From positions 42,581-106,580 of IMG/VR virus record IMGVR_UViG_3300012344_000014: a stretch of 64,000 nucleotides of DNA, one strand, 5' to 3'. The stretch comes from a virus. Lineage: Duplodnaviria; Heunggongvirae; Uroviricota; Caudoviricetes. The notes beneath the pieces are model-generated. The model was not told where the DNA came from, searched no databases, and worked only from the letters and a program-made list of their open reading frames with translations. A program made the translations under genes and the position numbers. The first letter of the stretch is position 1. Each line of letters starts with the position of its first letter. Positions 24,379 through 47,517 of this stretch are shown here, piece after piece.

Positions 24379-24556
24379 CGGCCGGTACCTGCACATAGAG
24401 GCCGCAGCAACATTCCTTTGTCGTCCGGAACGCAAGGCACGGACATTTGTTATCATCAGTCTTCTCGACCCGGCAGGGGCAATAGCCGTTGTTAGCGGCT
24501 ATTCTCCCCCTGAGCATCGCGACGAAATCCTTATCAGGATTCAGTTTGATTTTCAT
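24371..24556 (-). CDS. ferredoxin-thioredoxin reductase catalytic-subunit-like (FDR-like) small protein, copy 1
   Basis: 'GYCPCRVEKTDDNKCPCLAFRTTKECCCGLY' CPC...CPC...C.C motif. Paralogue of ORF 30201-30446. Confidence 0.5.
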   Translation of the reverse strand: MKIKLNPDKDFVAMLRGRIAANNGYCPCRVEKTDDNKCPCLAFRTTKECCCGLYVQVPADD

Positions 24557-26855
24557 ATTCCTGTCCACCGAAATACCTCCGGTCATATTCATTCTTGCGC
24601 TCGGCCGACCACTTCGACACGCGGGTCAGATAGCCGATGATGCGCGTGGCATAATCCAGATTTTCACTGCTGCACTTTGGGCACTTCTCCAGCTTGTGCT
24701 TGCTGATATACCCGCAGTCGTTGCAGATGGTATTGGGAACGTTGAAGGTAAAATACGAGCAGCCTTCATGAATCGCGTTGAGAATGAGCAGCTCGTACTG
24801 GCGAGCGGTGAGGTGTTCTTCGAGGTTGATATGGCAGGCGCTGCCGCCGTCGAGATTGCGGATATAACGATCGCCATGCAGCCGAATCTTATCAAGAACC
24901 GTTGTTTTAGGATCTTCAACCACGAAGAAATAGCTGTTATAACACGCTCTCGGGACGGAGAGCCCGTCGGCTTTATCCCATTTGGCGTTCTTCACGCCTA
25001 AGCTTTCGGCTGGCACGTACTCCGTGTTAAACATAACGCCCGGCTCGGCATCGGCCACGTTCCGCCGGTGAATCGTATCAAGGATGAGATCAGTGAACTC
25101 GCCGTAAGCCTTGTTGTCACCGACCGGAATGCCCAGATACTCCGCCGCCTCGACCAGACCGTTGATGCCAACGGTAAGATACTGCTTCTCCGGCGAAACG
25201 AACCCTGCGTCATAAAGCGGGATCATATGCTTGGCCTGCGCATCCTTCACCATCGCGTTATACGCTTTCAAATAGCGATGGACATGCGCGGTCAGATCGT
25301 CAAGCGAGGCTTTGACCTTGGCCAGATCGCCGCCGCAGCCCTGAACGAGCCGGTTGATATTGATGGTCATGACGCGCTTGGAGCCGGTCGCGATGCCGCC
25401 CGCGCCAAGGCTGTAAGTGAACTGGTTTTCAACGATGTTGTTTTTCAGGCGGCAGTTATGCGTAATTACTCCGGAGGGAAGCATGAAGTAGGGCTCGCAC
25501 CCATCATCAACCTCGAGGCAGTAAACATAATCGTATGTATTGGCGCTCTCGATCACCTCAGATACCGGGCGGTATGTATACATCCTGCTTTCGGGATCCC
25601 AACACTGGACTTCATCCCCCTCGACGAGCTCCTTCGCCTGGACGTCTCCGCGCCGGGTGGGGAAAAGATGGTTATCCGTCACCTCATACATATGGCGGGC
25701 GTTCGGCTTGACGTCGATTGTGATAAAATACATCTGACGGCCGGGGAGACGAATGAGAGTCGCGGGAACCACTTCCTCACCGAGCATAACCCGAACACGA
25801 AAATCCTGTTCCTGTTCAAGCATCTGGTAAAGACGCTCTGCAGCCCCGACAAGCAATGTGTTATGCTGGTCCCAGACGGAGAACAGTGTATCCGGCGCAA
25901 AGCAGCACGAACTCAAGCTATCCACGCTATCGCTGGTATAAGTGAAAAAACTGTGCCCTTCGGCATACATCTCGGCGATATGCTTCAGTGCCCGCTGGTC
26001 AACAGCCGTCTTGCCGTTGTTCAGGAGAGAGAACGTTTCGACCGGGAAGGTGATGATCTTGCGGAGCCGCTCCTGATTAAACCACTTCATAAACCGAACC
26101 TGCAGCCACCAGAGGGACTCCCAGAGATCGGTCATTACTGTGCCGTCCGGGAAGGCGAAACCTTCGAACAGCCCGCGGAAATACGGCTCATCAAAATAGG
26201 AAATATTCCAGAAGACGGCCTGATTGCCGCGCGCCGCCGCCGGTTGATTGACCGAGTAGACAACCTGCGCGAAGGTATCGGTGATCACGTTATCAATGGT
26301 GCGCTTGCGGCCGAACAGTTCGGCTTGCGTATCCGGCTTCAGATAATAATCTTCGCCGTATTCCTTGACGAGGAAATAGTTCATATAGGCGAGAAACTCC
26401 GGGGTGGCAATCGCGCCGAGCACCTGAGCGGAAGCGGCGAACACCAGATTGACAAACCCGCCGGCGAAACTTTGCAGCGTCTTGGGAGCGTCCGACGTGC
26501 CGCCCAGCCCCTTCAAGCCGTGCAAAAGAAACGGGTACATAGTGATGCTAGCGCAATAGATCTGCGGGGTCTGGCCGGTTTCATCATGGCAATAGACACG
26601 ATGGGTTTCGAGGTTATCAATGTAGCTGTCGGCCTCTTCCTCGCCGTACATGGCGGTGAGCATATCATGCATCATCAACCGGCTGGTATAGATGCGGCCG
26701 CGCTTACCGCTTTCGGACGCGAGGGTGGCCAGATTCTTTGAACTGACATTGGAGTTTGGATCATAGTCGCTGCTTTCGGCGGCGCATTTTTCATCCATAT
26801 AACGTCTGATGAAATTTGCTTCCGGACGATAGCGCGCATATTTGTCGGGGATCAT
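24534..26855 (-). CDS. nrdD: anaerobic ribonucleoside-triphosphate reductase (class III) containing a mini-intein
   Basis: Glycyl-radical motif 'RIIGYLTRV' and C-terminal Cys4 cluster. A ~150-aa Hint-only insertion is present. Confidence 0.9.
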   Translation of the reverse strand: MIPDKYARYRPEANFIRRYMDEKCAAESSDYDPNSNVSSKNLATLASESGKRGRIYTSRLMMHDMLTAMYGEEEADSYIDNLETHRVYCHDETGQTPQIYCASITMYPFLLHGLKGLGGTSDAPKTLQSFAGGFVNLVFAASAQVLGAIATPEFLAYMNYFLVKEYGEDYYLKPDTQAELFGRKRTIDNVITDTFAQVVYSVNQPAAARGNQAVFWNISYFDEPYFRGLFEGFAFPDGTVMTDLWESLWWLQVRFMKWFNQERLRKIITFPVETFSLLNNGKTAVDQRALKHIAEMYAEGHSFFTYTSDSVDSLSSCCFAPDTLFSVWDQHNTLLVGAAERLYQMLEQEQDFRVRVMLGEEVVPATLIRLPGRQMYFITIDVKPNARHMYEVTDNHLFPTRRGDVQAKELVEGDEVQCWDPESRMYTYRPVSEVIESANTYDYVYCLEVDDGCEPYFMLPSGVITHNCRLKNNIVENQFTYSLGAGGIATGSKRVMTININRLVQGCGGDLAKVKASLDDLTAHVHRYLKAYNAMVKDAQAKHMIPLYDAGFVSPEKQYLTVGINGLVEAAEYLGIPVGDNKAYGEFTDLILDTIHRRNVADAEPGVMFNTEYVPAESLGVKNAKWDKADGLSVPRACYNSYFFVVEDPKTTVLDKIRLHGDRYIRNLDGGSACHINLEEHLTARQYELLILNAIHEGCSYFTFNVPNTICNDCGYISKHKLEKCPKCSSENLDYATRIIGYLTRVSKWSAERKNEYDRRYFGGQEYENQTES
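25455..25904 (-). mobile_element. mini-intein (Hint domain, no endonuclease) inside nrdD
   Basis: N-terminal block 'C-FAPDTLFSV' after extein Cys; C-terminal block 'YVYCLEVDDGCEPYFMLPSGVITHN' followed by +1 Cys. About 150 aa. Confidence 0.7.
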
Positions 26856-32549: not shown

Positions 32550-32600
32550 TCTTTTCATATAATAAAGGGAACATTTTTCACCCCGCTTTTTCAGTTTGAG
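32550..32600 (-). promoter_or_regulatory. conserved promoter-like element, copy 2, upstream of the SPFH operon
   Basis: Minus reading ctgaaaaagcggggtgaAAAATGTTCCCTTTATTATatg. Confidence 0.5.
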
Positions 32601-35600
32601 CGGGCGAAACAGAAATTTTTTTGTAGCCGTCCATCCAAAGCTCAGTCACGCCGGGCTTGACAGAACGTTTGCCATCCTGATACTGATAGGCGGGCTTCTT
32701 CTGCCAGCCAAGGAGCTTGATGACGTCGCCGGCCTTAACGGGATCTTTAGCGAAATCAGGCTTGCGAATTTTCATCACACCGGTGTCTCCGGTGGAGACG
32801 CTATAGAGCTTCAGCTTGGGGCTATATTTCTCATCCACATCAATGACGGCGTAGCAGCCCTTCTTTTCGGGATAGACGCTGAGGGGCGCGCCGAAATAGT
32901 CGCACTCGAAGGGAATGATTTCCTCCATGGGGAGATCTTCATCCGGCAGGGAAGACTCCAGATCGCGCAGGACGGCGAGACGTTTCTGCTGCGTCTTCTC
33001 GACGAGCCCTTTATAGAACCGGTTCTCGCCGGACTTGAACTCCTGAAAGAGCTTGAGCAGTTTGGCGGAGCCGCCGAAATCGCTGAAGTATCCCATCTTG
33101 ATGAGCGCGGTGATGCTGGTGGCGTCGAACGCCGGAGACATATCCATATCGTAAAGCAGATCGGTGAAGTAAAGATACAGCGTATCGCGCATTTTATAGA
33201 GCGCGTCGGCGACTTTTCTACTGACGTGCTTGACGGAGGTGAGCGCGTCGGCGATGGTGTGCGCGCTTTCATCGATAAAGAAATCGCGGTTATCCTGCCC
33301 GAACTTGCAAGCGACGACGCGGATGCCGAACGCCCGACGCATTTCCTCCTTGGCTTTGGCGATGCGGTCTTTATCCTTCTTGGCGGCGTAGGCGCGAAGC
33401 AGGGTGGTGTAATACTGATAAGGATAGTGCGCCTTGAGCCATGCGCCGTAAAGACTATCCAGCGCGACGCAGGTGGCATGCGATGCATTAAAAAGATAGG
33501 AGCAGGAATCGTTGATGATCTGCCAGATTTTATCGGTGGTGGCGAGAGCTTCGGCCTCAGTGACATGCTCCTCCTCCACGATGCGCTGAGAGAACGTGGC
33601 GCGGAACTTTTCCTTGAGAGCGAGCACCTTTTCGGGATGCTTCTTCGAGATGGCCTTGATGGCGGCATAGGATTCAGCCCCAGTGAAACCGCCATGCTGT
33701 AGGACTTTCATGATCTGCTCCTGAAACATGAGGAAGCTGTCGGGAATTTCTTTCGTCTGAAGCAGGTTATCCAGCGAGGGGATACCATAATCGAAATGCC
33801 GGCGGGCGAGGAATGTATCGATCATCGACTTGAAGCCCGGGCGGATGGCGGCGACGAACGCGGCCAGCTCGGTAATATTGCGCGGCTTATAGCGGGCGAC
33901 CTTTTCAGTGGCCTTCTCGCGCTCAACCTGATTGAGCCCCATGGTATAGCCTTTGGCGTACATATCCCAGACTGGATCATCCGGCGGGCACATGGCGAGC
34001 AGTTCGTTAACAGAGGGGAGGGGGATATTGGCGGCCTTGTAGGCGGCGGCGTTGATGTTGACGACGGTGACGGAAAGAAGATCGTTTTTTAGATATCCGT
34101 ATCGATCCGCTGTCGCCCCGTCGATAAAAGCGGCATAAATAGTTCCCTTCTTGCCGGTTTTGCTATTGATACGATAAAGCCCAATTTCCCGGCGGATATC
34201 CTGATCGGTCAGAAGATAGGAACAGGGGCTGGGGGAGATGGAATCGACCATGCCAAGATATTTATTGGACATGCGCAGCTGCTCATGATACTCCTTGGGC
34301 ACGTAATCGAACGGATCGATGGCTTCGCGGTCTTCATCGTCTTCGGCGTATTTTACATCAAGCTCATACTTTTTCAAGCTGTCAGAGATGGCGTTAGCCG
34401 TTTCGAAGGCGACGTTGGTAGAACGGCAATACATCTTCCAGGCGGAAAGCCGTTTGAGCGTGCCAAAGGCGACCATCTGCGCGCTATGCCACTCGCCCAT
34501 GACCTCGGCCTGCGCTTTTTCAAACACCTCAACGTTGCCGCAGTTCAGATCCAAATCCGGCATCTGACCGGTGCTCAGGCGCTCTTTGGAAATAAACCGG
34601 TCGGGGTACATGGTGACGGGCATCTTCAAGCGATCAACGGAGGAGAAGCCGAGAAGCATATTCGTCAGGAAACTGACGCCGCTATTATGGACGACCATAT
34701 GATTAAGTAAGTAGCTGTGTGAATTTTCGATATGCAGATCGTAGACTTTGCACTTCTGCCGAGGTAGAAGATTGATTCCAGTAACTGGAATAAGCCAGTA
34801 CTTGTCGTTTTCAGATATTTTGCGTGACATCCCATAAGGAGTTGAATAAACGGGAATAACCCATTTATATGAGGTTTTGCAGTTATAACCGCGTTTATCA
34901 AACCAACGATCTCGCACTGTAAGCCGCGGCGGCTTCTCTCCAGCTTTCATACAAAGAATATTAAAGGCGTTCATCAAGGAAGGAGATGTATTGTCAAAGC
35001 ATTTACGATCCGATTCAGCAAAACAGCCATCGGTACGCATAAGCCCCGATAAAAAAGCTTTTGATTTCTCGTTATCAAGAAGCAAAATCTCATCGGGGAC
35101 AACTTTATCGTTTCCCTTTTTTGAAATGAAATACGTACAGCCAAGATATTTAGCAAAGGAAGAAGCATGCAGGGTAAGTTGAACCAATTTTTTATTTTTA
35201 GCTTTCGCTTCATAAATAGTTCCGCCAACCCGCGATGCCATAGTCTCAAAGATTTTGCGATTGTAAATATTTTTTTCGTTCTCCGCATTGATGGCAATAC
35301 CACAGACATAACTGCCGTCGTTTCTATGTCGAACCCAGCCGTCTCCATACATCATACCAAGGAATTCGTAATAGAGCGCGTCTTTAACGACCCATCTGCT
35401 CATCAACCGAAAACAAGTATCCTTATATTTTTGCGTAAGCGCTTCTTGAGTATCAACACCATAATAATCGAGTATTTCTCTTTTTGCTTTATTGAGATAT
35501 ACCCCAGGGCCACGACGAACTTCCGCGGAAGTTCGCCCAACAACAAAATTGTATAACGCTGAACGGGAGATGTGGAATTTTTTCATCAGGATTTCCCAGC

Positions 35601-37089
35601 CAAACGCTTCGCGCATCATGTCTTTGCGTAATTCAAAAATATGATCTCCGTCAAATATAGAGGCTCTGCTAATGTATTTGCTGAGATCAACCACTTCGGC
35701 AGTTTGTGAGGCCGGCTGAACAATCTTCGGAATACAAAGCAAATCCCCTTTCTTCAGCCGCGATGCTTCCACCCAGTCATAAGAGCCGTTCAACCGGCAA
35801 ACGAGAACACGATGATCCAACGTACATGTAGGATAAGAGCCAAACATCTTATTCGCCGGAGCCTGAATTTCAACAAGGGGTTCGTCAATATCATAAGAGA
35901 AGGTTTCAATTACTTTTTGATAATCCCCATCCTTATCAATTACAACGTCTCCAGGAGCCACTTGCGAAATTTGTTTCAGCCCGGTCAGTGTTGGCACACG
36001 CGCAGTGTCGGTGAAACAGCCCCTTCCAGATTGGGTTAACACCCCGCCTTCCCGCTTGGCAGTATCGACAACGCGGTTATCAATAAGAAAATAATCCGAA
36101 GTGTTGGTACCGGTAACGGCGTCTGTCTCATACCGGATCGCTTCTTCGTATTCCGGCCAGCGCTCCTGCGGCACTTCAGCTTTATACTGATCCCACGCCT
36201 GATGTACAAGGTCGAGATATTTTTGATTGCGCTCTTCCTGCGTCATGTCGGGATAAGCCGCGGGGAGCTTGCGGCGTTTACCAAACGAGACATCCTCAAA
36301 ATCCAGGAAGACGTTTGTGTTTTCCATCGCTTCATTAATCTGGGCGACGGACAGAACGCCCTGCGCCTTGAACCTGTCGAGCAAATGCTTTTCAGAGGGA
36401 TAATCCATATCCCAACCCTCTTCATCTTCATATTTAAGATGATGGGACTCAAGCAGCTGATCGCGCAGTTTGGAATCCTCCGGGTAAATGAAATGGGAAT
36501 CGGTTGCGGCAATGAGCGGGATATTATACTTGCGATAAAGATCGAGCACGAGCCGGTTGACATCCTTCTGCTTATCGACGTTATGCGCCTGAACCTCGAG
36601 CATGAAGCTGCCGCGGAAATGATCGTTCAAGAGCGTAACGAGCCGTTCGGCCTCCTCCGCGCCGTACTTCCAAATACCGCCGACGCAGGCTGTGGTAACG
36701 AATACATCCTTCGGATCGAGGGCCATGAGCAGATCCAGATCGACGCGGGGGCGATAGTAATAGCCGGTGATATTCGCTTCGGAGAGCGCATAATTCAAAT
36801 CGCCGACGCCTTTGCGCGTCTTCGCTGCCAGAATGAGATGGCAGTTGGATTTGTCTTTTTCGAAGCGGTCCTTGACGAAATAGGCTTCGGTAACATAGCG
36901 CCACTTCAGGCCATACTTTTCAGCTAGCTCGGCGCACTCCCAATAGTTGCCCTGCGTGCCATGGTTACAGGAGGAAAGAACCGTCTGGTTCAGTTCGACG
37001 GCGCGCCTGGCGTAATCCTCCATGGTGGCGACGCTGTCGGCAAGCATGATATTGGAGATGTGATCATGTTTATGATAATTGACGTACAT
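32578..37089 (-). CDS. dnaE: DNA polymerase III alpha subunit (DnaE-type, PHP domain) interrupted by an intein
   Basis: PHP start 'MYVNYHKHDH', palm and fingers motifs. 'GRG|S' extein junction split by a 445-aa insertion. RBS ggaggt then ATG at 37089; the ORF-track N-terminal 135 aa is spurious. Confidence 0.9.
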   Translation of the reverse strand: MYVNYHKHDHISNIMLADSVATMEDYARRAVELNQTVLSSCNHGTQGNYWECAELAEKYGLKWRYVTEAYFVKDRFEKDKSNCHLILAAKTRKGVGDLNYALSEANITGYYYRPRVDLDLLMALDPKDVFVTTACVGGIWKYGAEEAERLVTLLNDHFRGSFMLEVQAHNVDKQKDVNRLVLDLYRKYNIPLIAATDSHFIYPEDSKLRDQLLESHHLKYEDEEGWDMDYPSEKHLLDRFKAQGVLSVAQINEAMENTNVFLDFEDVSFGKRRKLPAAYPDMTQEERNQKYLDLVHQAWDQYKAEVPQERWPEYEEAIRYETDAVTGTNTSDYFLIDNRVVDTAKREGGVLTQSGRGCFTDTARVPTLTGLKQISQVAPGDVVIDKDGDYQKVIETFSYDIDEPLVEIQAPANKMFGSYPTCTLDHRVLVCRLNGSYDWVEASRLKKGDLLCIPKIVQPASQTAEVVDLSKYISRASIFDGDHIFELRKDMMREAFGWEILMKKFHISRSALYNFVVGRTSAEVRRGPGVYLNKAKREILDYYGVDTQEALTQKYKDTCFRLMSRWVVKDALYYEFLGMMYGDGWVRHRNDGSYVCGIAINAENEKNIYNRKIFETMASRVGGTIYEAKAKNKKLVQLTLHASSFAKYLGCTYFISKKGNDKVVPDEILLLDNEKSKAFLSGLMRTDGCFAESDRKCFDNTSPSLMNAFNILCMKAGEKPPRLTVRDRWFDKRGYNCKTSYKWVIPVYSTPYGMSRKISENDKYWLIPVTGINLLPRQKCKVYDLHIENSHSYLLNHMVVHNSGVSFLTNMLLGFSSVDRLKMPVTMYPDRFISKERLSTGQMPDLDLNCGNVEVFEKAQAEVMGEWHSAQMVAFGTLKRLSAWKMYCRSTNVAFETANAISDSLKKYELDVKYAEDDEDREAIDPFDYVPKEYHEQLRMSNKYLGMVDSISPSPCSYLLTDQDIRREIGLYRINSKTGKKGTIYAAFIDGATADRYGYLKNDLLSVTVVNINAAAYKAANIPLPSVNELLAMCPPDDPVWDMYAKGYTMGLNQVEREKATEKVARYKPRNITELAAFVAAIRPGFKSMIDTFLARRHFDYGIPSLDNLLQTKEIPDSFLMFQEQIMKVLQHGGFTGAESYAAIKAISKKHPEKVLALKEKFRATFSQRIVEEEHVTEAEALATTDKIWQIINDSCSYLFNASHATCVALDSLYGAWLKAHYPYQYYTTLLRAYAAKKDKDRIAKAKEEMRRAFGIRVVACKFGQDNRDFFIDESAHTIADALTSVKHVSRKVADALYKMRDTLYLYFTDLLYDMDMSPAFDATSITALIKMGYFSDFGGSAKLLKLFQEFKSGENRFYKGLVEKTQQKRLAVLRDLESSLPDEDLPMEEIIPFECDYFGAPLSVYPEKKGCYAVIDVDEKYSPKLKLYSVSTGDTGVMKIRKPDFAKDPVKAGDVIKLLGWQKKPAYQYQDGKRSVKPGVTELWMDGYKKISVSPAQTEKAG
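34684..36018 (-). mobile_element. full-length intein with LAGLIDADG homing endonuclease in dnaE
   Basis: Begins 'CFTDTARVPTL' after GRG and ends 'LNHMVVHN' before Ser. Two LAGLIDADG motifs ('LGMMYGDGW', 'LSGLMRTDGCF'). Confidence 0.75.
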
Positions 37090-37104
37090 AATACCTCCAC
37101 CCCT

Positions 37105-37133
37105 TGTTATTTCAAATGAGACATGATATACTT
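37105..37133 (+). promoter_or_regulatory. sigma70-like promoter (TTGTTA-17-TATACT) for the + strand island
   Basis: ttgtta at 37105 and tatact at 37128. Confidence 0.5.
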
Positions 37134-37165
37134 TGTTTATAATGCACGAAAGGATTTGAACGACA

Positions 37166-38071
37166 ATGGCAAAACGGTTTGTGGCGATTGCGCTGAGCAT
37201 TATACTTCTGCTTTGCGGCATCGCAAACGCGGAAACGCTGAAGATGCTGGATACGGGAGACGAAGTGCTGGCCCTGAAGAAGGCACTGACGGCGGCGGGA
37301 TATCTGGAAGCGACAGAAGAGACGACGAACGTATTCGACAAGGCGACGAAGAACGCCATCGAGGAGCTGCAGAAGGATTTTGAGCTGGAGGAAACGGGAA
37401 TTGCAACGCCGGAAATACAGGTGATTTGTACGCTGTTGGGGAAACTTACGGAAACGAAATCAACCGCCGGACAAGAGGAAGCAGATGCCGACATGGTAGT
37501 TATGCCGGATGTTTACGGCATAACAGCAGAAGACGCAGCAGAAGCATTGAAAAAGCTTGGCCTCTATGTTATTTTTACGGAAAGATATGACGACTCGCAA
37601 GAAGGAACGGTGTGCTATACCGGTTGTAAACCCGGAGAGAAACTAAAAAAAGGAAGCAAGGTAATTGTGCGCGTTAGCAAGGGGCCTCGCAGGATTGAAT
37701 CCAAAGCCAGCACCATTACCTGGTGGCACGTGAAGGGGTCTAATAGTGATGATTACGAATTTGAAAATCCTTACATTTACGAAGATACGCTCATCATCAA
37801 ACTTGACGTGACACTCAACTCTGAATACAGCCTGCGTTGGCGGGGATATGGCACAGCCTGCATTACGGACAGATTTGATAAGACCGTTCCGATAGAGGTA
37901 AAGTATGAAAACGAGCAAATCAAAAAGGGCGAAACACAAACAATCACTCTGAGAATCCCTCTGAGAGACCTCGACGTTAAGAAGCCGACAACCTTATCTG
38001 TCGAGCTTCAGCTATACCGCGGTAAACAAACCCCGACGCAAATCCGTCTGGATTTCACAATGACATGGTAA
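37166..38071 (+). CDS. secreted protein with peptidoglycan-binding domain and PASTA-like domain
   Basis: Signal peptide MAKRFVAIALSIILLLCGIANA; PG_binding_1-like 'DEVLALKKALTAAGYL...'; PASTA-like 'MPDVYGITAEDAAEALKKLGLYV...VIVRVSKG'. Confidence 0.6.
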   Translation: MAKRFVAIALSIILLLCGIANAETLKMLDTGDEVLALKKALTAAGYLEATEETTNVFDKATKNAIEELQKDFELEETGIATPEIQVICTLLGKLTETKSTAGQEEADADMVVMPDVYGITAEDAAEALKKLGLYVIFTERYDDSQEGTVCYTGCKPGEKLKKGSKVIVRVSKGPRRIESKASTITWWHVKGSNSDDYEFENPYIYEDTLIIKLDVTLNSEYSLRWRGYGTACITDRFDKTVPIEVKYENEQIKKGETQTITLRIPLRDLDVKKPTTLSVELQLYRGKQTPTQIRLDFTMTW

Positions 38072-38880: not shown

Positions 38881-40083
38881 TTAATTTTTCAATTCGACGA
38901 GATACTTGACGGTCGTCTGGCATTCCTGATAGACGATGATCTCGTCGTTGCGGAGCATTGCCCCTTCATGCGCATGCAGACAGTTCGCGCCGGGACATGC
39001 GGCCTGAAGTTTTTCATAGTTGAAGGAGTTATAAGCGCCGGAGAAAGAATGAACGTCGTACGGTTTGCCGTAGGCGACCTCATACAGTCCCATAAAAGCG
39101 CTGTTCTCACTGCCTTTAGCCCAATAAGAACCGGAAAGGGAAGTGTAACCAAGCGACTTGCGCGCCTTTGTGGCGAAATAGATACCGTAACCGAACATCT
39201 TGCCGGTGATAACCGCGTTGGTGGGCTTGAGAACAAGGCCGCCGGTGAGGATGGACCACCAGTTTTCATTGCGGCTGCCATGCCAGAGCAGCTTGGTAGC
39301 GATATGAGCAGGCTCGACATAATTATCGAACGCCTGCTGGGTACGAAGGTTCCGAACCCGCCACGCCTGACGGAATTTATCGGCGCAGGAACCGAGGCAG
39401 GACTTGATTTTAATGATGTCTTCGGGCGTTGCTTCTTCAAAGACAAGACCGTTCGCCTCGAGGACGGTCTGCTGTACTGGAGCAGTATCGACAACTTTTA
39501 CCGGCTGCGGGACATAGACCTGACCGCGCATAATATCCAGCAGATCCTGTTCTCGGCGGATAATATCGCCGAACTGGTCGACCGAAGTGGCCAAATGAGA
39601 GCGGACGCTGGCCATGCGGCGGGGAATAATGCCGAACAATTCCGACAACAGCAGATTAAAATCATTCAAGCTGCGTTTATCAACCAGCGCGTTCAGCATG
39701 AGCTGCGCTTCATCGACCATCGCCATAGTGACCTTGTTGGACGAGATGGTGTAGTTCTCCGCAACCGCCTGCCGCGCCATTTCTCTCAGCCGGCGGACAA
39801 TTTCAGCGATGGGTTTCTGCAGGATCGGCCGATAATCATCTGTAACAGGCTGTACTTCAATCAGGTCTTGCACAAGCCATGTACGATCAACATACCCTTT
39901 GGAAAGCTTTTCGTTGTATTTCTTCTCCCAGTCCCGGAGGGAGTAAGTCCGGCGCTGCGGACTCGCCCCCACGCGGCCATAAGCCGCCTCCCAGACGAAG
40001 CCCATCGGGGTCATATCATAATATTTATTATTGTTGGCGTCGGCGGATATTTTCACCAGCCGCCGCGGCGTATATTCCATCAC
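38881..40083 (-). CDS. PARP-like ADP-ribosyltransferase with N-terminal WGR domain
   Basis: WGR: 'KYYDMTPMGFVWEAAYGRVGASPQ'. Catalytic domain 'LLWHGSRNENWWSILTGGL...GKMFGYGIYFATKARKSLGY...GLYEVAYGKPY' retains the His/Tyr/Glu triad. Confidence 0.7.
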   Translation of the reverse strand: MMEYTPRRLVKISADANNNKYYDMTPMGFVWEAAYGRVGASPQRRTYSLRDWEKKYNEKLSKGYVDRTWLVQDLIEVQPVTDDYRPILQKPIAEIVRRLREMARQAVAENYTISSNKVTMAMVDEAQLMLNALVDKRSLNDFNLLLSELFGIIPRRMASVRSHLATSVDQFGDIIRREQDLLDIMRGQVYVPQPVKVVDTAPVQQTVLEANGLVFEEATPEDIIKIKSCLGSCADKFRQAWRVRNLRTQQAFDNYVEPAHIATKLLWHGSRNENWWSILTGGLVLKPTNAVITGKMFGYGIYFATKARKSLGYTSLSGSYWAKGSENSAFMGLYEVAYGKPYDVHSFSGAYNSFNYEKLQAACPGANCLHAHEGAMLRNDEIIVYQECQTTVKYLVELKN

Positions 40084-40550: not shown

Positions 40551-41861
40551 TCAATAATAGCTGACTTCTTTGCCGGGCTCACGCAGATCTTTGAAAACCG
40601 GGAAACGGAGCGACTCGACGCCCGATTTATCCTGCGTGACCTCAAAATACTGCACCGTAGCGACCCGACCGATAAATTGGGACGGATTCGCCCAGACCTC
40701 GCGGCGGAAAGAATCCGTCATGCCGGAGCCGACACGGACGGGATTGCCCTTAAAATCCACCACCAATGCGCCGAGCGTGCCCTTGAAGCGGCCGCCGCCT
40801 TCTTCAACACCGGTGATTGCAAGATCACAATCCTGCATGGCTTTAACCTTAAGCAGATTCCGGGTGCGCTTGAACTCATAGGGCGCGTCGAGCAGGTTGA
40901 TCATCACGCCTTCATGATTGAGGCCGCGCTGAATTTCAAGATGGCGAAGGATTTCATTCGCATCGCCGCCGACATAGAGGACGGGAACGACCTTGATATG
41001 CTCGACATCATGGACGATCGCTTCCAACTCCTGCCGGCGAAGGTAATACGGCGTGGTGCAGTCATGGTTGAGAAAGACGCTGTAATCGACGATATCGAAA
41101 GCGTTGAAGACGACGCCGCGCTTCTCGCCATCCCGGCGGACGACCTGCACGGTGCGCTTATACTGCTCTTTGCTGGGAATATTCTCCCTGTCCGCGATGA
41201 GCAGCTCGCCGTCAAGCACAAAGCCAAGCGCGCCGCTATCGGTAAGCGTGAGAATATCATCTTCCAACTCGACAAGCCCTTCGATGGGCTGACCCTGCCG
41301 GGTATAGAAACGGGGCGACTTGCCCTTCTCGGCCACGCACTGACAGCGAACGCCGTCCAGCTTTTCGGTAAGCGCGAAACGTTTGCCTTCAACCGCTTCG
41401 GGATGCTCGAAATATTTCTCGGCCAGCATGCATTCATACACGGGAATAACCGTGCGGCCAAGAACCCTGTTGACCGTCTTGGCGGAAATACCGAGCGGAA
41501 TATCTTTACAGAGGAATCGAACAAGGAACTCGCGCAAGGCCGGGTCGGCTATATTGGAGAGCGTATATTGCAGCTTGGCGAGAACTTGCATATCTGCGGC
41601 GCGCAGGCCGGACAAATATTCGCACATGGTAAAAAGATCATCCCAATATGAAGCCAGCGTGATATTCAAATTTTTCTCAAGCGACCTGCGCTGAACATGA
41701 AAGACGACCATAGGATCGAGCAGAAGCTTCAGGGCGGAAAACGCCGCAGGACTCTGGGCGCAGGCCAGAATTTCCGGCTCTTTCGCCTTGCCTCGCGCGG
41801 TTTGAATCGCATCGAAGCAAGGCCTGATTTCGTGAAGCTGAGATTCAAGAGTGAAAGACAT
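40551..41861 (-). CDS. ATP-dependent DNA ligase
   Basis: Adenylation motif I 'EKLDGVRCQ'; nucleotidyltransferase plus OB domains. RBS aaggaa then ATG at 41861; the ORF-track N-terminal 101 aa is spurious. Confidence 0.75.
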   Translation of the reverse strand: MSFTLESQLHEIRPCFDAIQTARGKAKEPEILACAQSPAAFSALKLLLDPMVVFHVQRRSLEKNLNITLASYWDDLFTMCEYLSGLRAADMQVLAKLQYTLSNIADPALREFLVRFLCKDIPLGISAKTVNRVLGRTVIPVYECMLAEKYFEHPEAVEGKRFALTEKLDGVRCQCVAEKGKSPRFYTRQGQPIEGLVELEDDILTLTDSGALGFVLDGELLIADRENIPSKEQYKRTVQVVRRDGEKRGVVFNAFDIVDYSVFLNHDCTTPYYLRRQELEAIVHDVEHIKVVPVLYVGGDANEILRHLEIQRGLNHEGVMINLLDAPYEFKRTRNLLKVKAMQDCDLAITGVEEGGGRFKGTLGALVVDFKGNPVRVGSGMTDSFRREVWANPSQFIGRVATVQYFEVTQDKSGVESLRFPVFKDLREPGKEVSYY

Positions 41862-42167
41862 GATGTATTCCTTTCTTGATTGATGTATAATTGCGTTATG
41901 CGGCCAGAGGCGAGGGAACCCATTTCGCACGATACGTTGAAGGGAAGGAGGCCACAGCTTCAAATGGAGAAGATAGTAACAATTTAGAACATTATTCTGA
42001 TTGTGCTTCAGCTGATTGCAGCTGCGTTCGAGTTGGCTAAACCACAGGACACCGCTGTGACCATCCATGTTGAGGGCAATAACAACAACGTTATTGTCAT
42101 TGTCAACACTGGGATGAAGTAACAACCGCCAGTGATGACGCGCCGTGTTACTTCTCCGGCGCATAAC

Positions 42168-45131: not shown

Positions 45132-45688
45132 TGTTTTCCCTCCATTAATTTTGTCCGAATTCGCGCGCCCGTTTCCGCGACGCGCTGCTGAACGCGTTGG
45201 CGGCTGAGCCCGAGCTCGTCACCGAGCGACTGACAGGTTTTGCCACCTATATGATAACACAGATACAGCCGCGCCGCATCCTCGCCGACAATGGATTTCA
45301 TATAAGAAACGATGCGCTGCGCATCCATAAAGGCGTCTGCATCGGTGATACAGCGCTGATCGCCGGGGAGATAATAGTCGATCATCATATCGGAAAGAAA
45401 ACCGACGCCACTCTCTGGTTTACGGGACTGCGTGTTATTATACGCGTTAAGATGGGAGAGCTCGCTGCGAACCTGGTGCCAGAGATAAGTCGACCAGGCG
45501 CATTTGCCGGGGACATAGCTCTGCACGGCGCGAACCGCAACAAGATGGACGAGTCCAAGCGAATCATCGAACCCCAAATCCCGTCGATAACGCGCAAGCT
45601 TTGAAGCATAGAGGACAAGCAGCCCATAATTCCGCTCGAGGAAGGCGCGCTGCGCATCAGTGAGCGGCGGACAAATTTTCTTTCTCAT
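45086..45688 (-). CDS. sigma-70-family RNA polymerase sigma factor (regions 2 and 4)
   Basis: Region-4 HTH 'CQSLGDELGLSRQRVQQRVAETGARIRTKL'. Confidence 0.75.
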   Translation of the reverse strand: MRKKICPPLTDAQRAFLERNYGLLVLYASKLARYRRDLGFDDSLGLVHLVAVRAVQSYVPGKCAWSTYLWHQVRSELSHLNAYNNTQSRKPESGVGFLSDMMIDYYLPGDQRCITDADAFMDAQRIVSYMKSIVGEDAARLYLCYHIGGKTCQSLGDELGLSRQRVQQRVAETGARIRTKLMEGKQWLGIADGIVGSSPH

Positions 45689-47517
45689 TAGAACGGCAAT
45701 GTCTGAGCCAGCATGATGCCATACTCCGGCATGGAATCGGCGCGCGGGTCAGGCTTCTGCACTCCCTCCTTATTCCAGCTGAAATTATTCAGATCGCCTT
45801 TATCGGCCTGATAGATGCGGCGGCTATCGCCGCAATAACAGCACTCGATGAGTTTTTCAATGCCGCCTTCGCGGTTTTTGATGATGCGCAAATTCGGGCG
45901 CTCAACAACGATGGCGGAATCTGCAAGGTTGACGATCTGTGAAGAACCGGCGACATCAAATTTCCCAAATTGTTCGCCCGCTTTACGCTTGCGCGGGTGA
46001 CAAACGGCCAGCACATGGACTGAAAAACGAACGGCAAACTTTTTGAGCGCGCCGATAAACTTGCCCTGCGCACGGGTTTCCTCATCGACGTCAGAGAGAG
46101 AAGTCATCAGGTTATCGACAAGAAAAAGCTTGCAGCCATAGCGGCGAACCGCCATGGTGAACACTTCGAGAATGGATTCCGCCTGATTATGCTCGAAGAT
46201 TTCGTTATTATCGAAGAGAAAAAACTTGCCGCCGTAATATTCCGAAAGCCGCTGCTGAACCTGCCAGCTGAGAGACGGCACCTGTTTTTCTCGAACAGGA
46301 TCATACTTCAGGCCGATATAATCAGAGCCGGCGCACTGGAGATTGATCCATTCCTGAAACTTCTCCTTGCGAAGTTCGCCGGAATAAGCACAGACGCTAT
46401 AACCCTGCTCGATTGCGTTGAGAAGAAGCAGCCCGGTTAGGGTACTTTTACCGTTTCCGGAATCACCCGTAAAAACGGTGAGGCCGCCCTCGACAAGCCC
46501 GCCAATCGTCGCATCCAGCGCAGGGATCATCGTCTTGATTCGGGGAACGGTCGTCGGGTCATACGGGGTGACGGTGCCGAGATCGAGCAGACCCTTGATG
46601 GGAACCTGTCGGGCATTCTCGACCATATCGATCAGTTCGAATGGGCCCAACGCAAAGAGGATTTCGTTCGCGTCCTTACATTCCTTGCCGCGGTCTTCCC
46701 AGTAAGGGTAATCCTCAACGATGGCGCACCGCGACTCGTCCAGCCGCTTGGCCACCTGCTGAACCATCTTGCGGCCGGGGTCGTCGTTATCGCCGAAGAG
46801 AATAATACGCTTGAATTTTTCCAGCCAGTCCCAGCAGTTCTCGATCCAGCTGAAATCCTCGCAGCCGGAGGGGACAGAAACGACGTTGGTGACGCCGGCC
46901 TCATAAAGGGACATGGCGTCCAGCTGGCCTTCCGTGATGACGAGCGGCTGGGCGAAGGAGCACATATCCATCCCGAAGAGAACAGCCTTTGTGCCGGGGG
47001 CGCGCCACTCCTTTCCCTTCTCGCCCTCTTTCGGCTTCCACGGCCGGCGGAATTTCTCAAAGACGTTGACGCCGTTTTCATAAAAAGGGAAGACGATCAT
47101 GCCGGCGTCGTCGGACTGGATCTTAAAAGCGTCGACCGTTTCGCGGCTGATGCAGCGCTTCTCAAAATACTGATAGATCGCTTCCGTGGGCGGGTTGAGA
47201 TGCGTATCGGGGAGCTTCCACGCTTTAGGCTTTTGTTTGGCGAGGCTGGAGGAGCGAGCGGAGCGGGCGGCATTGGTATCGCCGAAGAATTCGGCCAGCT
47301 CGTCAAAGTGCCCGCGCTTGCCGCAGGTGCCACGCTTGCAGACAAACACTCCTTTATCGATGGAGAGCGCGAAGGTTTCCTTATCCCCATTATCCCCGCC
47401 GTGACAGAAGGGACAATACTCCGGGACGATTTCTTCGCCCCCATCCTGCTTGGGTTTCACCTTAAAATTGCCGAGATACTGATCCGCGAACCGGATCATC
47501 TGATCTCTGTTATTCAT
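45688..47517 (-). CDS. bifunctional primase-helicase (zinc-binding plus Toprim plus DnaB/SF4-like helicase)
   Basis: N-terminal 'CPFCHGGDNGDKETFALS...CKRGTCGKRGH', Toprim region, and Walker A 'GDSGNGKSTLTG'. Confidence 0.85.
   Translation of the reverse strand: MNNRDQMIRFADQYLGNFKVKPKQDGGEEIVPEYCPFCHGGDNGDKETFALSIDKGVFVCKRGTCGKRGHFDELAEFFGDTNAARSARSSSLAKQKPKAWKLPDTHLNPPTEAIYQYFEKRCISRETVDAFKIQSDDAGMIVFPFYENGVNVFEKFRRPWKPKEGEKGKEWRAPGTKAVLFGMDMCSFAQPLVITEGQLDAMSLYEAGVTNVVSVPSGCEDFSWIENCWDWLEKFKRIILFGDNDDPGRKMVQQVAKRLDESRCAIVEDYPYWEDRGKECKDANEILFALGPFELIDMVENARQVPIKGLLDLGTVTPYDPTTVPRIKTMIPALDATIGGLVEGGLTVFTGDSGNGKSTLTGLLLLNAIEQGYSVCAYSGELRKEKFQEWINLQCAGSDYIGLKYDPVREKQVPSLSWQVQQRLSEYYGGKFFLFDNNEIFEHNQAESILEVFTMAVRRYGCKLFLVDNLMTSLSDVDEETRAQGKFIGALKKFAVRFSVHVLAVCHPRKRKAGEQFGKFDVAGSSQIVNLADSAIVVERPNLRIIKNREGGIEKLIECCYCGDSRRIYQADKGDLNNFSWNKEGVQKPDPRADSMPEYGIMLAQTLPF

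What the first reader, a model, noticed from the sequence alone, without database searches (positions are those of the whole stretch)
34684..36018. 445-aa intein with a double LAGLIDADG homing endonuclease in dnaE
The insertion splits the conserved 'GRG|SxxS' motif of DnaE. It begins 'CFTDTARV' and ends 'VVHN' then Ser, with two LAGLIDADG motifs. Together with the nrdD mini-intein, the phage carries two independent inteins in replication genes.
Basis: partly seen in the sequence, partly recalled or inferred. Interest (0 to 1): 0.55.

Follow-up and report, generated by a model that had tools for sequence, protein, structure and literature searches.

The report
Mobile intein in phage DNA polymerase
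A phage DNA polymerase gene (dnaE) is interrupted by an ordinary self-splicing intein that carries its own homing endonuclease; near-identical phages with and without it show that it has moved recently, but it is a common, already known kind of element.

Summary
Window 34684-36018 (-) encodes 445 aa, CFTDTARV...MVVHN, followed by Ser. It lies inside a 1503-aa DnaE precursor (32578-37089, -).

Removing these 445 aa gives a 1058-aa protein. It aligns without a gap to Thermus aquaticus DnaE across GRG|SxxGS. It is collinear, residue for residue, with natural intein-free alleles that are 96-99.5% identical.

All class-1 splicing residues are present: C1, T66-x-x-H69, D427, H444-N445 and Ser+1. The predicted fold matches PI-SceI, TliVMA and I-DmoI, and both LAGLIDADG aspartates (D226, D330) are present.

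The GRG|S site is widely occupied. About 100 of the top 150 metagenomic cluster representatives show both junctions there, as do 51 bacterial genomes and Lactococcus phages 949 and P1048.

Evidence for recent mobility:
- The intein is 42% GC; the exteins are 52-54% GC.
- The same phage backbone occurs with a full intein or with none, and an ~80% nt relative carries a mini-intein.
- Ten synonymous changes are packed within 17 nt of the junction, consistent with a co-conversion tract.
- The endonuclease core is under purifying selection (omega about 0.05).

The nrdD mini-intein is also real (25455-25904, -).

Verdict: a new member of a known kind, of modest interest.

The parts
32578..37089 (-). 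dnaE precursor CDS: 1503 aa plus stop. Layout is N-extein 357 aa, intein 445 aa, C-extein 701 aa.
   Evidence: ORF and translation. Pfam and NCBIfam DnaE domains. The identical 1503-aa product is called on 14 public contigs with the same start.
36019..37089 (-). N-extein: PHP domain and the start of the palm, ending ...LTQSGRG.
   Evidence: It differs at only 2 of 1071 nt from the intein-free allele L059.
34684..36018 (-). Class-1 intein, 445 aa, C1...H444-N445. GC is 42% against 52-54% in the exteins.
   Evidence: Exact excision is proven by collinear empty alleles.
35725..36018 (-). N-terminal splicing (Hint) half, intein aa 1-98. It holds block A (Cys1) and block B (T66-L-D-H69).
   Evidence: It is retained at 78% nt identity in the mini-intein allele L002. 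C1, T66 and H69 are invariant in 86 same-site inteins. The AF2 model shows beta-strands with pLDDT 78-92.
35389..35724 (-). Linker plus helical region, intein aa 99-210. It includes an HTH-like stretch, ISRSALYNFVVGRTS. It is probably an accessory DNA-binding or linker domain (inferred).
   Evidence: Helices at 126-210 in the AF2 model, but with low confidence (pLDDT 31-64). The core of the region (aa 138-197) is present in about 70% of same-site inteins. It is absent from the phage 949 intein. No Pfam hit. Its omega of 0.12 is the highest in the gene.
34819..35388 (-). Double-LAGLIDADG homing-endonuclease core, intein aa 211-400.
   Evidence: The alpha-beta-beta-alpha-beta-beta-alpha unit occurs twice in the AF2 model. 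Foldseek matches I-DmoI (TM 0.70, rmsd 3.0 A) and the endonuclease-bearing inteins TliVMA, PI-SceI and PI-PfuI. Omega is 0.05 against the L062 lineage. This region and the linker before it (907 nt in all) are replaced by 25 nt in L002.
35338..35379 (-). LAGLIDADG motif 1, aa 214-227 (ALYYEFLGMMYGDG), with catalytic Asp226.
   Evidence: At this position 71 of 86 same-site inteins have D and 13 have N.
35026..35064 (-). LAGLIDADG motif 2, aa 319-331 (SKAFLSGLMRTDG), with catalytic Asp330.
   Evidence: D is present in 85 of 86 same-site inteins.
34684..34818 (-). C-terminal splicing half, aa 401-445. It holds block F (VYDL, D427) and block G (VVHN).
   Evidence: Retained in the mini-intein allele. 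D427, H444 and N445 are invariant. There are 0 non-synonymous and 21 synonymous codon changes against L062.
32578..34683 (-). C-extein (Ser+1 GVSFLTNML... through the rest of the palm, the fingers and the HhH/OB regions) plus the stop codon.
34668..34683 (-). Putative co-conversion tract: the first 16 nt of the C-extein (AGC GGC GTC AGT TTC C), together with the last N-extein base at 36019. These bases carry 10 of the 54 nt differences from the otherwise 98.3%-identical empty allele, and all 10 are synonymous.
   Evidence: The same position is the most divergent 37-nt window of the gene against L006 (18 mismatches against a mean of 4.3; 0 of 2000 permutations reach this).

Best explanation
Window 34684-36018 (-) is a canonical class-1 intein with an in-frame, single-chain double-LAGLIDADG homing endonuclease. 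It sits in the catalytic palm of a phage DnaE (Pol III alpha-type) polymerase, between the Gly and Ser of the GRG|S motif (T. aquaticus G425|S426).

Proposed mechanism:
1. The 1503-aa precursor is translated.
2. The Hint domain, formed from intein aa 1-98 and 401-445, carries out the standard four-step splicing reaction: N-S acyl shift at Cys1; trans-esterification to Ser+1; cyclisation of Asn445 assisted by His444; and an O-N shift.
3. This releases a contiguous 1058-aa polymerase and a free 445-aa intein.
4. The free intein acts as a site-specific endonuclease on intein-free dnaE alleles of co-infecting related phages.
5. Repair of the break copies in the intein together with a few flanking bases (homing).

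Shown here: the exact boundaries; the conserved catalytic residues; the fold; presence/absence polymorphism on one phage backbone; foreign base composition; a cluster of linked flank markers; and purifying selection on the endonuclease.

Inferred, not shown: actual splicing; actual DNA cleavage and its target sequence; and homing by double-strand-break repair rather than ordinary recombination.
For: Boundaries and host gene. The spliced product aligns through the junction with T. aquaticus DnaE (grgsgvsfl against grgsaagsl).

Empty alleles of identical length occur in near-identical phages: P0391/P0393 at 99.4-99.5% aa, on 17 contigs up to 123 kb, and P0272 at 96%.

Splicing residues C1, T66, H69, D427, H444 and N445 are invariant in 86 full-length same-site inteins. 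Pfam Intein_splicing is above its gathering score.

Endonuclease: the AF2 model (pLDDT 69.5 overall, 70-86 in the core) matches TliVMA intein (E 6e-15), PI-SceI, PI-PfuI and I-DmoI, and D226 and D330 are present. Between the window and the L062 lineage, dN/dS of the LAGLIDADG core is 0.05 (29 non-synonymous and 74 synonymous changes, dS about 1.2), the same as the splicing domain.

Mobility:
- Intein GC is 42% (GC3 40%) against exteins at 52-54% (GC3 63-70%). The same contrast holds in L062.
- Full (445 aa), mini (151 aa, L002) and empty alleles all exist.
- Ten synonymous differences lie in positions -1..+15 of the junction, whereas the other 1070 nt of the N-extein carry a single difference.
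- The +1 Ser codon is AGC in all three intein-bearing alleles with a readable C-flank. It is TCG in the two empty alleles that share their backbones.
Against: No experiment supports splicing or cleavage.

Pfam LAGLIDADG_3 is below its cut-off (20.1 against 22.5 bits). PDB sequence searches give only E of about 0.3-1, so the endonuclease assignment rests on motifs, fold prediction and selection.

The AF2 model is only moderately confident, and residues 102-136 are disordered.

The flank cluster has a second reading, namely target-site resistance of the empty alleles. Two more distant empty alleles (L063, L064) carry the AGC-type site without an intein, so AGC is not strictly intein-linked.

The window and L062 inteins are more diverged (81% nt) than their exteins (88.5%), so not every intein copy is a very recent transfer.
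Confidence: 0.9

Rival explanations
1. It is a splicing-competent intein whose endonuclease is no longer active. It persists only by vertical inheritance and ordinary phage-phage recombination, on its way to becoming a mini-intein.
For: A close relative has already lost the endonuclease: the 151-aa mini-intein in L002. Thirteen of the 103 complete same-site inteins found among the representatives are mini-sized (132-183 aa). In 13 of 86 full-length family members D226 is replaced by N. The LAGLIDADG Pfam score is sub-threshold. No cleavage data exist.
Against: Both catalytic Asp residues are intact here. The endonuclease core has omega 0.05 over dS of about 1.2, which is not expected for a decaying domain. 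The foreign GC content has not ameliorated, unlike the nrdD mini-intein. The ±intein polymorphism on a backbone 98-99.8% identical, with a tight marker tract, argues for recent site-specific movement.
Confidence: 0.2
2. The cluster of synonymous changes at the junction is not a co-conversion tract. Instead it is an endonuclease-resistance ('immune') variant of the target site, selected in the intein-free phages that co-circulate with intein carriers.
For: On two different backbones (window/L059 and L062/L006) the empty partner has GGG|TCG where the intein carrier has GG(C/A)|AGC. More distant empty alleles (L063, L064) keep the AGC-type site. The changes are all synonymous and sit exactly where a LAGLIDADG enzyme would bind.
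Against: AGC to TCG requires three substitutions through non-Ser intermediates at a conserved active-site Ser, which is unlikely to arise repeatedly. The window's tract AGC GGC GTC AGT is identical to the native sequence of the L064 lineage. That is what import from a donor predicts. The two readings are not mutually exclusive.
Confidence: 0.3
3. The insert is not an intein. It is either a non-splicing inserted domain or Hint-like (BIL) domain, or a free-standing or intron-encoded LAGLIDADG gene that happens to be in frame. On this view the dnaE here is a pseudogene.
For: No splicing has been demonstrated. Related contigs do show dnaE disrupted by other elements: a group I intron candidate in L002 and IS-like DNA in L061 and P0339.
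Against: The reading frame is uninterrupted across 1503 codons. The insert is flanked by both halves of a Hint domain carrying every class-1 catalytic residue and a +1 Ser. No Rfam family, including group I and II introns, reaches threshold anywhere in the window. The identical precursor recurs on 14 contigs up to 119 kb. Both exteins and the intein are under strong purifying selection.
Confidence: 0.03

Closest known systems
Bacterial DnaE (Pol III alpha) inteins at the palm GRG|S site
   Same: They share the host protein, the insertion point (GRG|C...HN|S(A/G)(A/G)GS), the class-1 residues, and a similar size (mostly 376-470 aa). They also share the double-LAGLIDADG core and, in about 70%, the helical region before it. 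I found them in chromosomal dnaE of Clostridium sp. K13, C. disporicum, Sarcina, Sulfurovum, Bernardetia sp. OM2101, Yaniella flava, Persephonella, Omnitrophota and others. Novikova et al. (PMC4760082) counted 116 PolIII-alpha inteins at insertion points a-g, some of them in the pol3_alpha catalytic domain.
   Different: This copy is in a phage polymerase only about 25-39% identical to cellular DnaE. Sequence identity to these inteins is 24-30%, and 48% to the best metagenomic representative, P0121. I could not map this site onto the letter code (a-g) used in that paper, because the figure is not held.
DnaE intein of Lactococcus phages 949 and P1048 (Audreyjarvisvirus)
   Same: It is a phage DnaE with the identical insertion point (GVLTKTGRG|CFEETALV...MVVHN|SAPSF), 34% identical over the whole intein, and both LAGLIDADG motifs are conserved.
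   Different: It is 376 aa rather than 445 aa and lacks the roughly 70-aa helical/HTH-like segment. The host phage is a different genus. The GenBank record annotates only 'putative DNA polymerase III alpha subunit'.
PI-SceI, TliVMA, PI-PfuI and PI-TkoII (endonuclease-bearing inteins with solved structures)
   Same: The overall architecture is the same: a Hint splicing domain split by a LAGLIDADG endonuclease. Foldseek E values are 6e-15 to 1e-8 with probability 1.0.
   Different: They lie in different host proteins (VMA1 ATPase, RNR, PolB). Sequence identity is 12-15%, and the accessory DNA-binding regions differ.
Cyanobacterial split DnaE inteins (Ssp and Npu DnaE)
   Same: They share the host protein family and class-1 chemistry.
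   Different: They lie at a different site, in the fingers next to the FNKSH motif. They are naturally split and have no endonuclease (PMC4760082; the exact junction is from my own knowledge). Relatives of this phage at about 60% identity do carry another intein next to that motif, at FN(A/S)|SH. The window does not.
Actinobacteriophage DnaE inteins (bioRxiv 10.1101/2025.01.02.630785)
   Same: These are inteins reported in phage DNA polymerase III alpha subunits, and canonical LAGLIDADG architecture dominates among phage inteins.
   Different: The phage group and hosts are different. I did not compare sequences or insertion points.

Membership tests
Class 1 intein (Hint-domain protein-splicing element) | A Cys/Ser/Thr nucleophile as the first intein residue (block A). 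| tested here: met
   Cys1 (CFTDTARV). Cys is invariant in 86 same-site inteins.
Class 1 intein (Hint-domain protein-splicing element) | Block B TxxH motif. | tested here: met
   T66-L-D-H69. Both residues are invariant in 86 of 86 inteins.
Class 1 intein (Hint-domain protein-splicing element) | Blocks F and G: a conserved Asp in block F, a penultimate His, a terminal Asn, and a +1 Cys/Ser/Thr. | tested here: met
   VYD427L, then ...VVH444N445|S. D427, H444 and N445 are invariant, and Ser+1 follows.
Class 1 intein (Hint-domain protein-splicing element) | In-frame insertion in a conserved host motif, whose exact removal restores a contiguous host protein. | tested here: met
   The spliced protein aligns across GRG|S with T. 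aquaticus DnaE. It aligns without gaps to natural 1058-aa intein-free alleles.
Class 1 intein (Hint-domain protein-splicing element) | A profile match to the intein splicing domain at the curated threshold. | tested here: met
   PF14890 Intein_splicing scores 43.0 bits against a cut-off of 35.8.
Class 1 intein (Hint-domain protein-splicing element) | Protein splicing actually occurs. | not testable with these tools
   This needs expression with western blotting or mass spectrometry of the junction peptide.
LAGLIDADG homing endonuclease, single-chain two-motif type | Two LAGLIDADG helices, each ending in a catalytic acidic residue. | tested here: met
   FLGMMYGD226G and FLSGLMRTD330G. D is conserved in 71 of 86 and 85 of 86 inteins respectively.
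LAGLIDADG homing endonuclease, single-chain two-motif type | Pseudo-dimeric fold built from two alpha-beta-beta-alpha-beta-beta-alpha units. | tested here: met
   The AF2 secondary structure over aa 214-381 shows this pattern. Foldseek matches I-DmoI with TM 0.70 (normalised to the target) and rmsd 3.0 A over about 175 columns. The model is of moderate confidence (pLDDT 70-86 in this region).
LAGLIDADG homing endonuclease, single-chain two-motif type | A profile match at the curated threshold. | tested here: not met
   PF14528 LAGLIDADG_3 scores 20.1 bits against a cut-off of 22.5, with E 7.8e-4. This is a marginal failure, which I attribute to divergence.
LAGLIDADG homing endonuclease, single-chain two-motif type | Site-specific cleavage of the intein-free allele. 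| not testable with these tools
   Only indirect evidence is available: omega 0.05 on the core, the ±intein polymorphism, and the flank marker tract.
DnaE GRG|S-site intein allele | Insertion exactly between Gly and Ser of the GRGS motif of the Pol III alpha palm, with homology to other inteins at that site. | tested here: met
   Of the top 150 representatives, 103 show both GRG|C and HN|S junctions in one protein. The best ones align continuously over the flanks plus the intein. The site is also occupied in 51 bacterial genome loci and in phage 949.

The most novel reading that the evidence does not exclude
The most novel reading not excluded is that the intein-free phages co-circulating with carriers have an endonuclease-resistant target. 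In them, seven consecutive codons at the polymerase active-site GRGS motif are synonymously recoded, including an AGC-to-TCG switch of the Ser codon. That would be a visible arms race between a homing endonuclease and its phage host within one natural population.

A second, less likely lead concerns lineages in which IS-like DNA interrupts the endonuclease region (L061). These might survive by trans-splicing of the two intein halves, which would be a split intein caught at birth.
Probability: 0.2. Interest if true: 0.5.

Novelty: new member of a known kind. Interest (0 to 1): 0.28.

Why it matters
For annotation, the true polymerase is the 1058-aa spliced product. The 1503-aa ORF should be annotated as a precursor with an intein at residues 358-802.

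Biologically, phage replication depends on splicing, because the intein interrupts the nucleotide-binding GS motif 37 residues before the catalytic aspartates.

The public metagenomes happen to hold this phage lineage with several allele states: a full intein, none, a mini-intein and a possibly IS-disrupted intein. There is also a sharply bounded flank marker tract. Together these form a compact natural dataset for the homing cycle and for mapping the recognition site of a new LAGLIDADG enzyme.

None of this changes what is known about inteins. The practical value is limited to a possible new splicing or endonuclease reagent.

Tried and rejected
- **Plus-strand reading of the given coordinates.** It is full of stops, so the feature is on the minus strand.
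- **Upstream extension of the ORF to 37494.** Rejected. It overlaps a PG_binding/PASTA gene on the other strand, and public gene calls start at 37089.
- **Megablast of the gene against GenBank phages.** No match.
- **IMG/VR scan with the spliced protein.** No relatives found.
- **First word-based homology search with the intein alone.** Only 2 hits. The profile search was then swamped by PorB (pyruvate:ferredoxin oxidoreductase beta) inteins. These served as an alignment for structure prediction but say nothing about DnaE.
- **PDB sequence search with the intein.** Nothing below E 0.3.
- **The search for related loci on bacterial genomes with a 12-sequence alignment.** I replaced it with a degenerate DNA pattern for VHN|SAAGSxhxY. 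That pattern gave 52 loci, of which 51 are real DnaE junctions and 1 is a chance hit in Arthrobacter.
- **Group I/II intron or other RNA explanation.** No Rfam family reaches threshold in the window.
- **Naturally split intein suggested by the 662-aa and 820-aa cluster members.** Not supported. The 662-aa protein ends where its contig runs into unrelated, IS-like DNA and then stops.
- **Pfam on the helical region aa 107-206.** No hit.
- **Site-specific mini-intein HMM against all six-frame ORFs of the window.** It finds only the DnaE intein, and it is too specific to detect the nrdD one.
- **Literature search for the letter name of this insertion point.** The text of PMC4760082 gives sites a-g, but the figure is not available.

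Full report
**1. What is in the sequence**

The coordinates are exact, but the feature is on the minus strand. The plus-strand translation of 34684-36018 is full of stops. The reverse complement reads 445 uninterrupted codons, CFTDTARVPT...SYLLNHMVVHN.

It lies inside ORF 32578-37494 (-). The true start is the Met at 37089 (MYVNYHKHDH..., preceded by GGGGTGGAGG). Public gene calls for the identical 1503-aa protein on 14 metagenomic contigs use the same start. The further upstream extension overlaps a PG_binding/PASTA gene on the other strand.

The insert is preceded by ...GGVLTQSGRG and followed by SGVSFLTNML.

The window is phage DNA. It encodes tail fibre and collagen-like tail proteins, an anti-repressor, a large serine recombinase, a primase-helicase, a DNA ligase and NrdD. 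The polymerase is closest (37-39% identity) to DnaE of large Bacillota siphoviruses: Geobacillus virus E3, Bacillus Tsamsa-like phages and Lactococcus phages. There is no near-identical DNA in GenBank phages.

**2. The host gene and the insertion point**

The full ORF matches PHP, DNA_pol3_alpha, DNA_pol3_finger and, between them, Intein_splicing (43 bits on the excised segment against a cut-off of 35.8). NCBIfam DNA polymerase III alpha models match at E about 1e-80 in two stretches that skip the insert.

After removing the 445 residues, the 1058-aa product aligns with T. aquaticus Pol III alpha (2hpi, E 1e-47). One stretch of that alignment runs straight across the junction: sgrg-sgvsfltnmllgfssvdrl against pgrg-saagslvayavgitnidpl. 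Counting along that alignment, the insertion lies between T. aquaticus G425 and S426, 37 residues before MPDIDTD (D463/D465).

From established knowledge of the Pol-beta-like nucleotidyltransferase palm of Pol III alpha, this G-S motif contacts the incoming nucleotide. I did not test that here. If so, the unspliced precursor should be inactive.

The segment has no DnaE homology.

**3. Proof of the boundaries from natural alleles**

A search with the spliced protein found a 1058-aa intein-free cluster at 96% identity (P0272). Within that cluster, P0391 and P0393 are 99.4-99.5% identical to the window's spliced product. P0391 is encoded on 17 contigs up to 123 kb.

At the DNA level, the window's CDS minus the 1335 nt has exactly the same length (3177 nt) as these alleles and aligns without gaps. 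Identity is 98.3% to L059/L060 and 88.4% to L006. The 3 kb on either side are 98.7% and 95.6% identical.

**4. Is it a functional-looking intein?**

All class-1 hallmarks are present: Cys1, T66-x-x-H69 (block B), D427 in VYDL (block F), H444-N445 (block G) and Ser+1.

I ran an exhaustive HMMER search of 1.84 billion cluster representatives, using the intein plus 40-residue flanks. It returned 1795 hits at E<=1e-3 and 51 at E<=1e-30. Of the top 150, 103 show both GRG|C and HN|S junctions in one protein. Lengths cluster at 376-471 aa (full) and 132-183 aa (mini). In the 86 full-length ones, the six splicing residues are invariant.

**5. The endonuclease**

The Pfam LAGLIDADG_3 match is marginal (20.1 bits against a cut-off of 22.5), and PDB sequence searches are uninformative.

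An AlphaFold2 model built on an alignment with distant PorB inteins has mean pLDDT 69.5 and pTM 0.60. Confidence is 70-92 in the Hint strands and the LAGLIDADG core. Residues 214-381 show two alpha-beta-beta-alpha-beta-beta-alpha units.

Foldseek against the PDB returns endonuclease-bearing inteins first: TliVMA 7qsu (E 6e-15), PI-TkoII, PI-SceI and PI-PfuI. Next comes the single-chain enzyme I-DmoI (TM 0.70 normalised to the target, rmsd 3.0 A).

The catalytic aspartates D226 (YGDG) and D330 (RTDG) are present. Across the family they are D in 71 of 86 and 85 of 86 members.

Between the N-terminal Hint half and the core lies a helical region (aa about 126-210) with an HTH-like stretch. It is poorly modelled and has no Pfam hit. 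Its core (aa 138-197) is shared by about 70% of the family but is missing in phage 949.

A second intein-bearing lineage (L062; exteins 88.5% and intein 81% nt identical) allows a selection test. Omega (dN/dS) by region is as follows.

| Region | dN/dS |
|---|---|
| LAGLIDADG core (29 non-synonymous, 74 synonymous changes; dS about 1.2) | 0.05 |
| N-terminal splicing half | 0.05 |
| N-extein | 0.03 |
| Helical linker | 0.12 |

The C-terminal splicing half has 0 non-synonymous and 21 synonymous codon changes. The endonuclease has therefore been kept by selection. This is indirect evidence that it works.

**6. Evidence for mobility**

(a) *Composition.* The intein is 42% GC (GC3 40%), inside exteins of 52-54% GC (GC3 63-70%) and a 53% GC window. 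L062 shows the same contrast. The nrdD mini-intein, by contrast, has host-like composition.

(b) *Allele series.* On related backbones there are four states:
- a full 445-aa intein (window, L062);
- a 151-aa mini-intein in L002 (an ~80% nt relative), where 907 nt (intein aa about 99-400) are replaced by 25 nt;
- empty sites (L059, L060, L006, L063, L064);
- a copy whose endonuclease region runs into IS-like DNA at a contig end (L061).

(c) *Flank markers.* Against the 98.3%-identical empty allele, the N-extein has 2 differences in 1071 nt. In contrast, positions -1..+15 around the insertion point carry 10 differences, all synonymous:

- window: GGC|AGC GGC GTC AGT TTC CTG
- empty allele: GGG|TCG GGT GTA TCT TTT TTG

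Against L006, the most divergent 37-nt window in the whole gene is centred on the junction. It has 18 mismatches against a mean of 4.3, and 0 of 2000 codon-position-preserving permutations reach that value.

The three intein-bearing alleles with a readable C-flank have AGC at Ser+1. The two empty alleles on the same backbones have TCG. The window's tract AGC GGC GTC AGT is identical to the native sequence of the L064 lineage.

The simplest reading is a short co-conversion tract imported with the intein from an AGC-type donor: 16 nt in the window and 4 nt in L062. The alternative is that TCG-type empty sites are endonuclease-resistant variants. It is not excluded and is listed as a rival.

**7. 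How common is this?**

It is very common. Besides the metagenomic representatives, a degenerate DNA pattern for VHN|SAAGSxhxY found 52 loci in one-genome-per-species bacterial assemblies. Of these, 51 are DnaE C-junctions. The organisms include Clostridium sp. K13, C. disporicum, Sarcina, Sulfurovum, Bernardetia sp. OM2101, Yaniella flava, Persephonella, Omnitrophota, Saccharimonadales and Acidimicrobiales.

Lactococcus phages 949 and P1048 carry a 376-aa homologue (34% identity) at the identical site. The record annotates it only as the polymerase.

The literature counts 116 PolIII-alpha inteins at seven insertion points (PMC4760082). It also reports DnaE inteins in actinobacteriophages (bioRxiv 10.1101/2025.01.02.630785).

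**8. The second intein**

NrdD (24534-26855, -; Pfam NRDD E 6e-85) contains a 150-aa insert at 25455-25904 (-): SLSSC|CFAPDTLF...TDNH...GVITHN|CRLKNN.

On its own it is only a weak Pfam match (13.7 bits). However, the spliced NrdD aligns continuously with T. maritima NrdD 4coi (sdsvdslssccrlknn against sdsidavasccrltss). L002 carries a 310-aa homologue at the same site that does reach the Intein_splicing cut-off (36 bits).

The two window inteins share no detectable similarity (E 0.23).

The sizes are reciprocal. The window has a full DnaE intein and a mini NrdD intein. L002 has a mini DnaE intein and a larger NrdD intein.

**9. Verdict**

Both the observation and the interpretation are correct. 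The element is a canonical class-1 intein with a LAGLIDADG endonuclease, at a frequently used DnaE site. It is a new sequence of a known kind.

The added value here is the population evidence for recent movement, and a defined pair of candidate target sequences for testing the endonuclease. I score interest at 0.28.

Noticed in passing
window 25455-25904 (-), inside nrdD 24534-26855 (-): A 150-aa mini-intein lies between the two Cys of the conserved SSCCRL motif of NrdD. Its GC content is host-like (54%), unlike the DnaE intein. The relative L002 has a 310-aa intein at the same site, with LAGLIDADG remnants.
   Followed up: yes
L002 12128-12439 (ENA ERZ27271080 k141_124078); the equivalent window position is 34068-34080: In this ~80% nt relative, dnaE is split into two ORFs (710 and 471 aa) by a roughly 312-nt insert at the GYLKNDL|LSV motif. 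The insert matches the group I intron model RF00028 (41.3 bits, E 3e-9, below the gathering score of 50). The window has no such insert.
   Followed up: partly
L061 about 6905-7042 (ENA ERZ27287399 k141_897213); proteins P0413/P0414 and P0410/P0415: In an ~85% nt variant, homology to the intein stops after intein aa ~278. It is replaced by unrelated DNA with a TTGACA...TATAAT promoter-like site and an ORF start, MQITQEQYEKIAKYLPRQRGN (IS-like). The contig then ends. Matching C-terminal proteins start at MRTDGC. This could be an IS insertion in the endonuclease region, or an assembly break.
   Followed up: partly
proteins P0273, P0292-P0368 (relatives at about 54-66% identity): Many related phage DnaEs carry a different intein of 150-278 aa in the fingers, at FN(A/S)|SH. 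That is next to the site of the cyanobacterial split DnaE intein. It ends in GN rather than HN, and some copies have an HNH domain (PF01844). The window's DnaE lacks it.
   Followed up: partly
protein P0339 (747 aa, ENA): An intein-free dnaE, 92% identical to the window's, loses homology after residue 656. It continues into a tail carrying an HTH_21 (IS3-type transposase) domain. This suggests that some members of this lineage are decaying prophages.
   Followed up: no
window 38881-40083 (-) and neighbours up to 42164: The phage encodes a protein with WGR and PARP catalytic domains (E 1e-21). It sits next to a small ORF that has a faint Macro-domain hit in the relative L002, and next to an ATP-dependent DNA ligase (40551-42164, -). 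This is an ADP-ribosylation module directly upstream of dnaE.
   Followed up: no
window 15920-17605 (-) and 48030-49544 (-): The first is a large serine recombinase (Resolvase, Recombinase, Zn_ribbon_recom and DUF4368 domains), which suggests a temperate lifestyle. The second is a DUF2828/DUF7788 protein next to the primase-helicase (45688-47517, -).
   Followed up: no
window 32578-33130 (-); dnaE C-extein positions +1553 to +2072: Against the 98.3%-identical empty allele L059, 33 of the 54 differences cluster in the last ~520 nt of the gene. The downstream 3 kb is only 95.6% identical. This looks like a recombination mosaic boundary unrelated to the intein.
   Followed up: no
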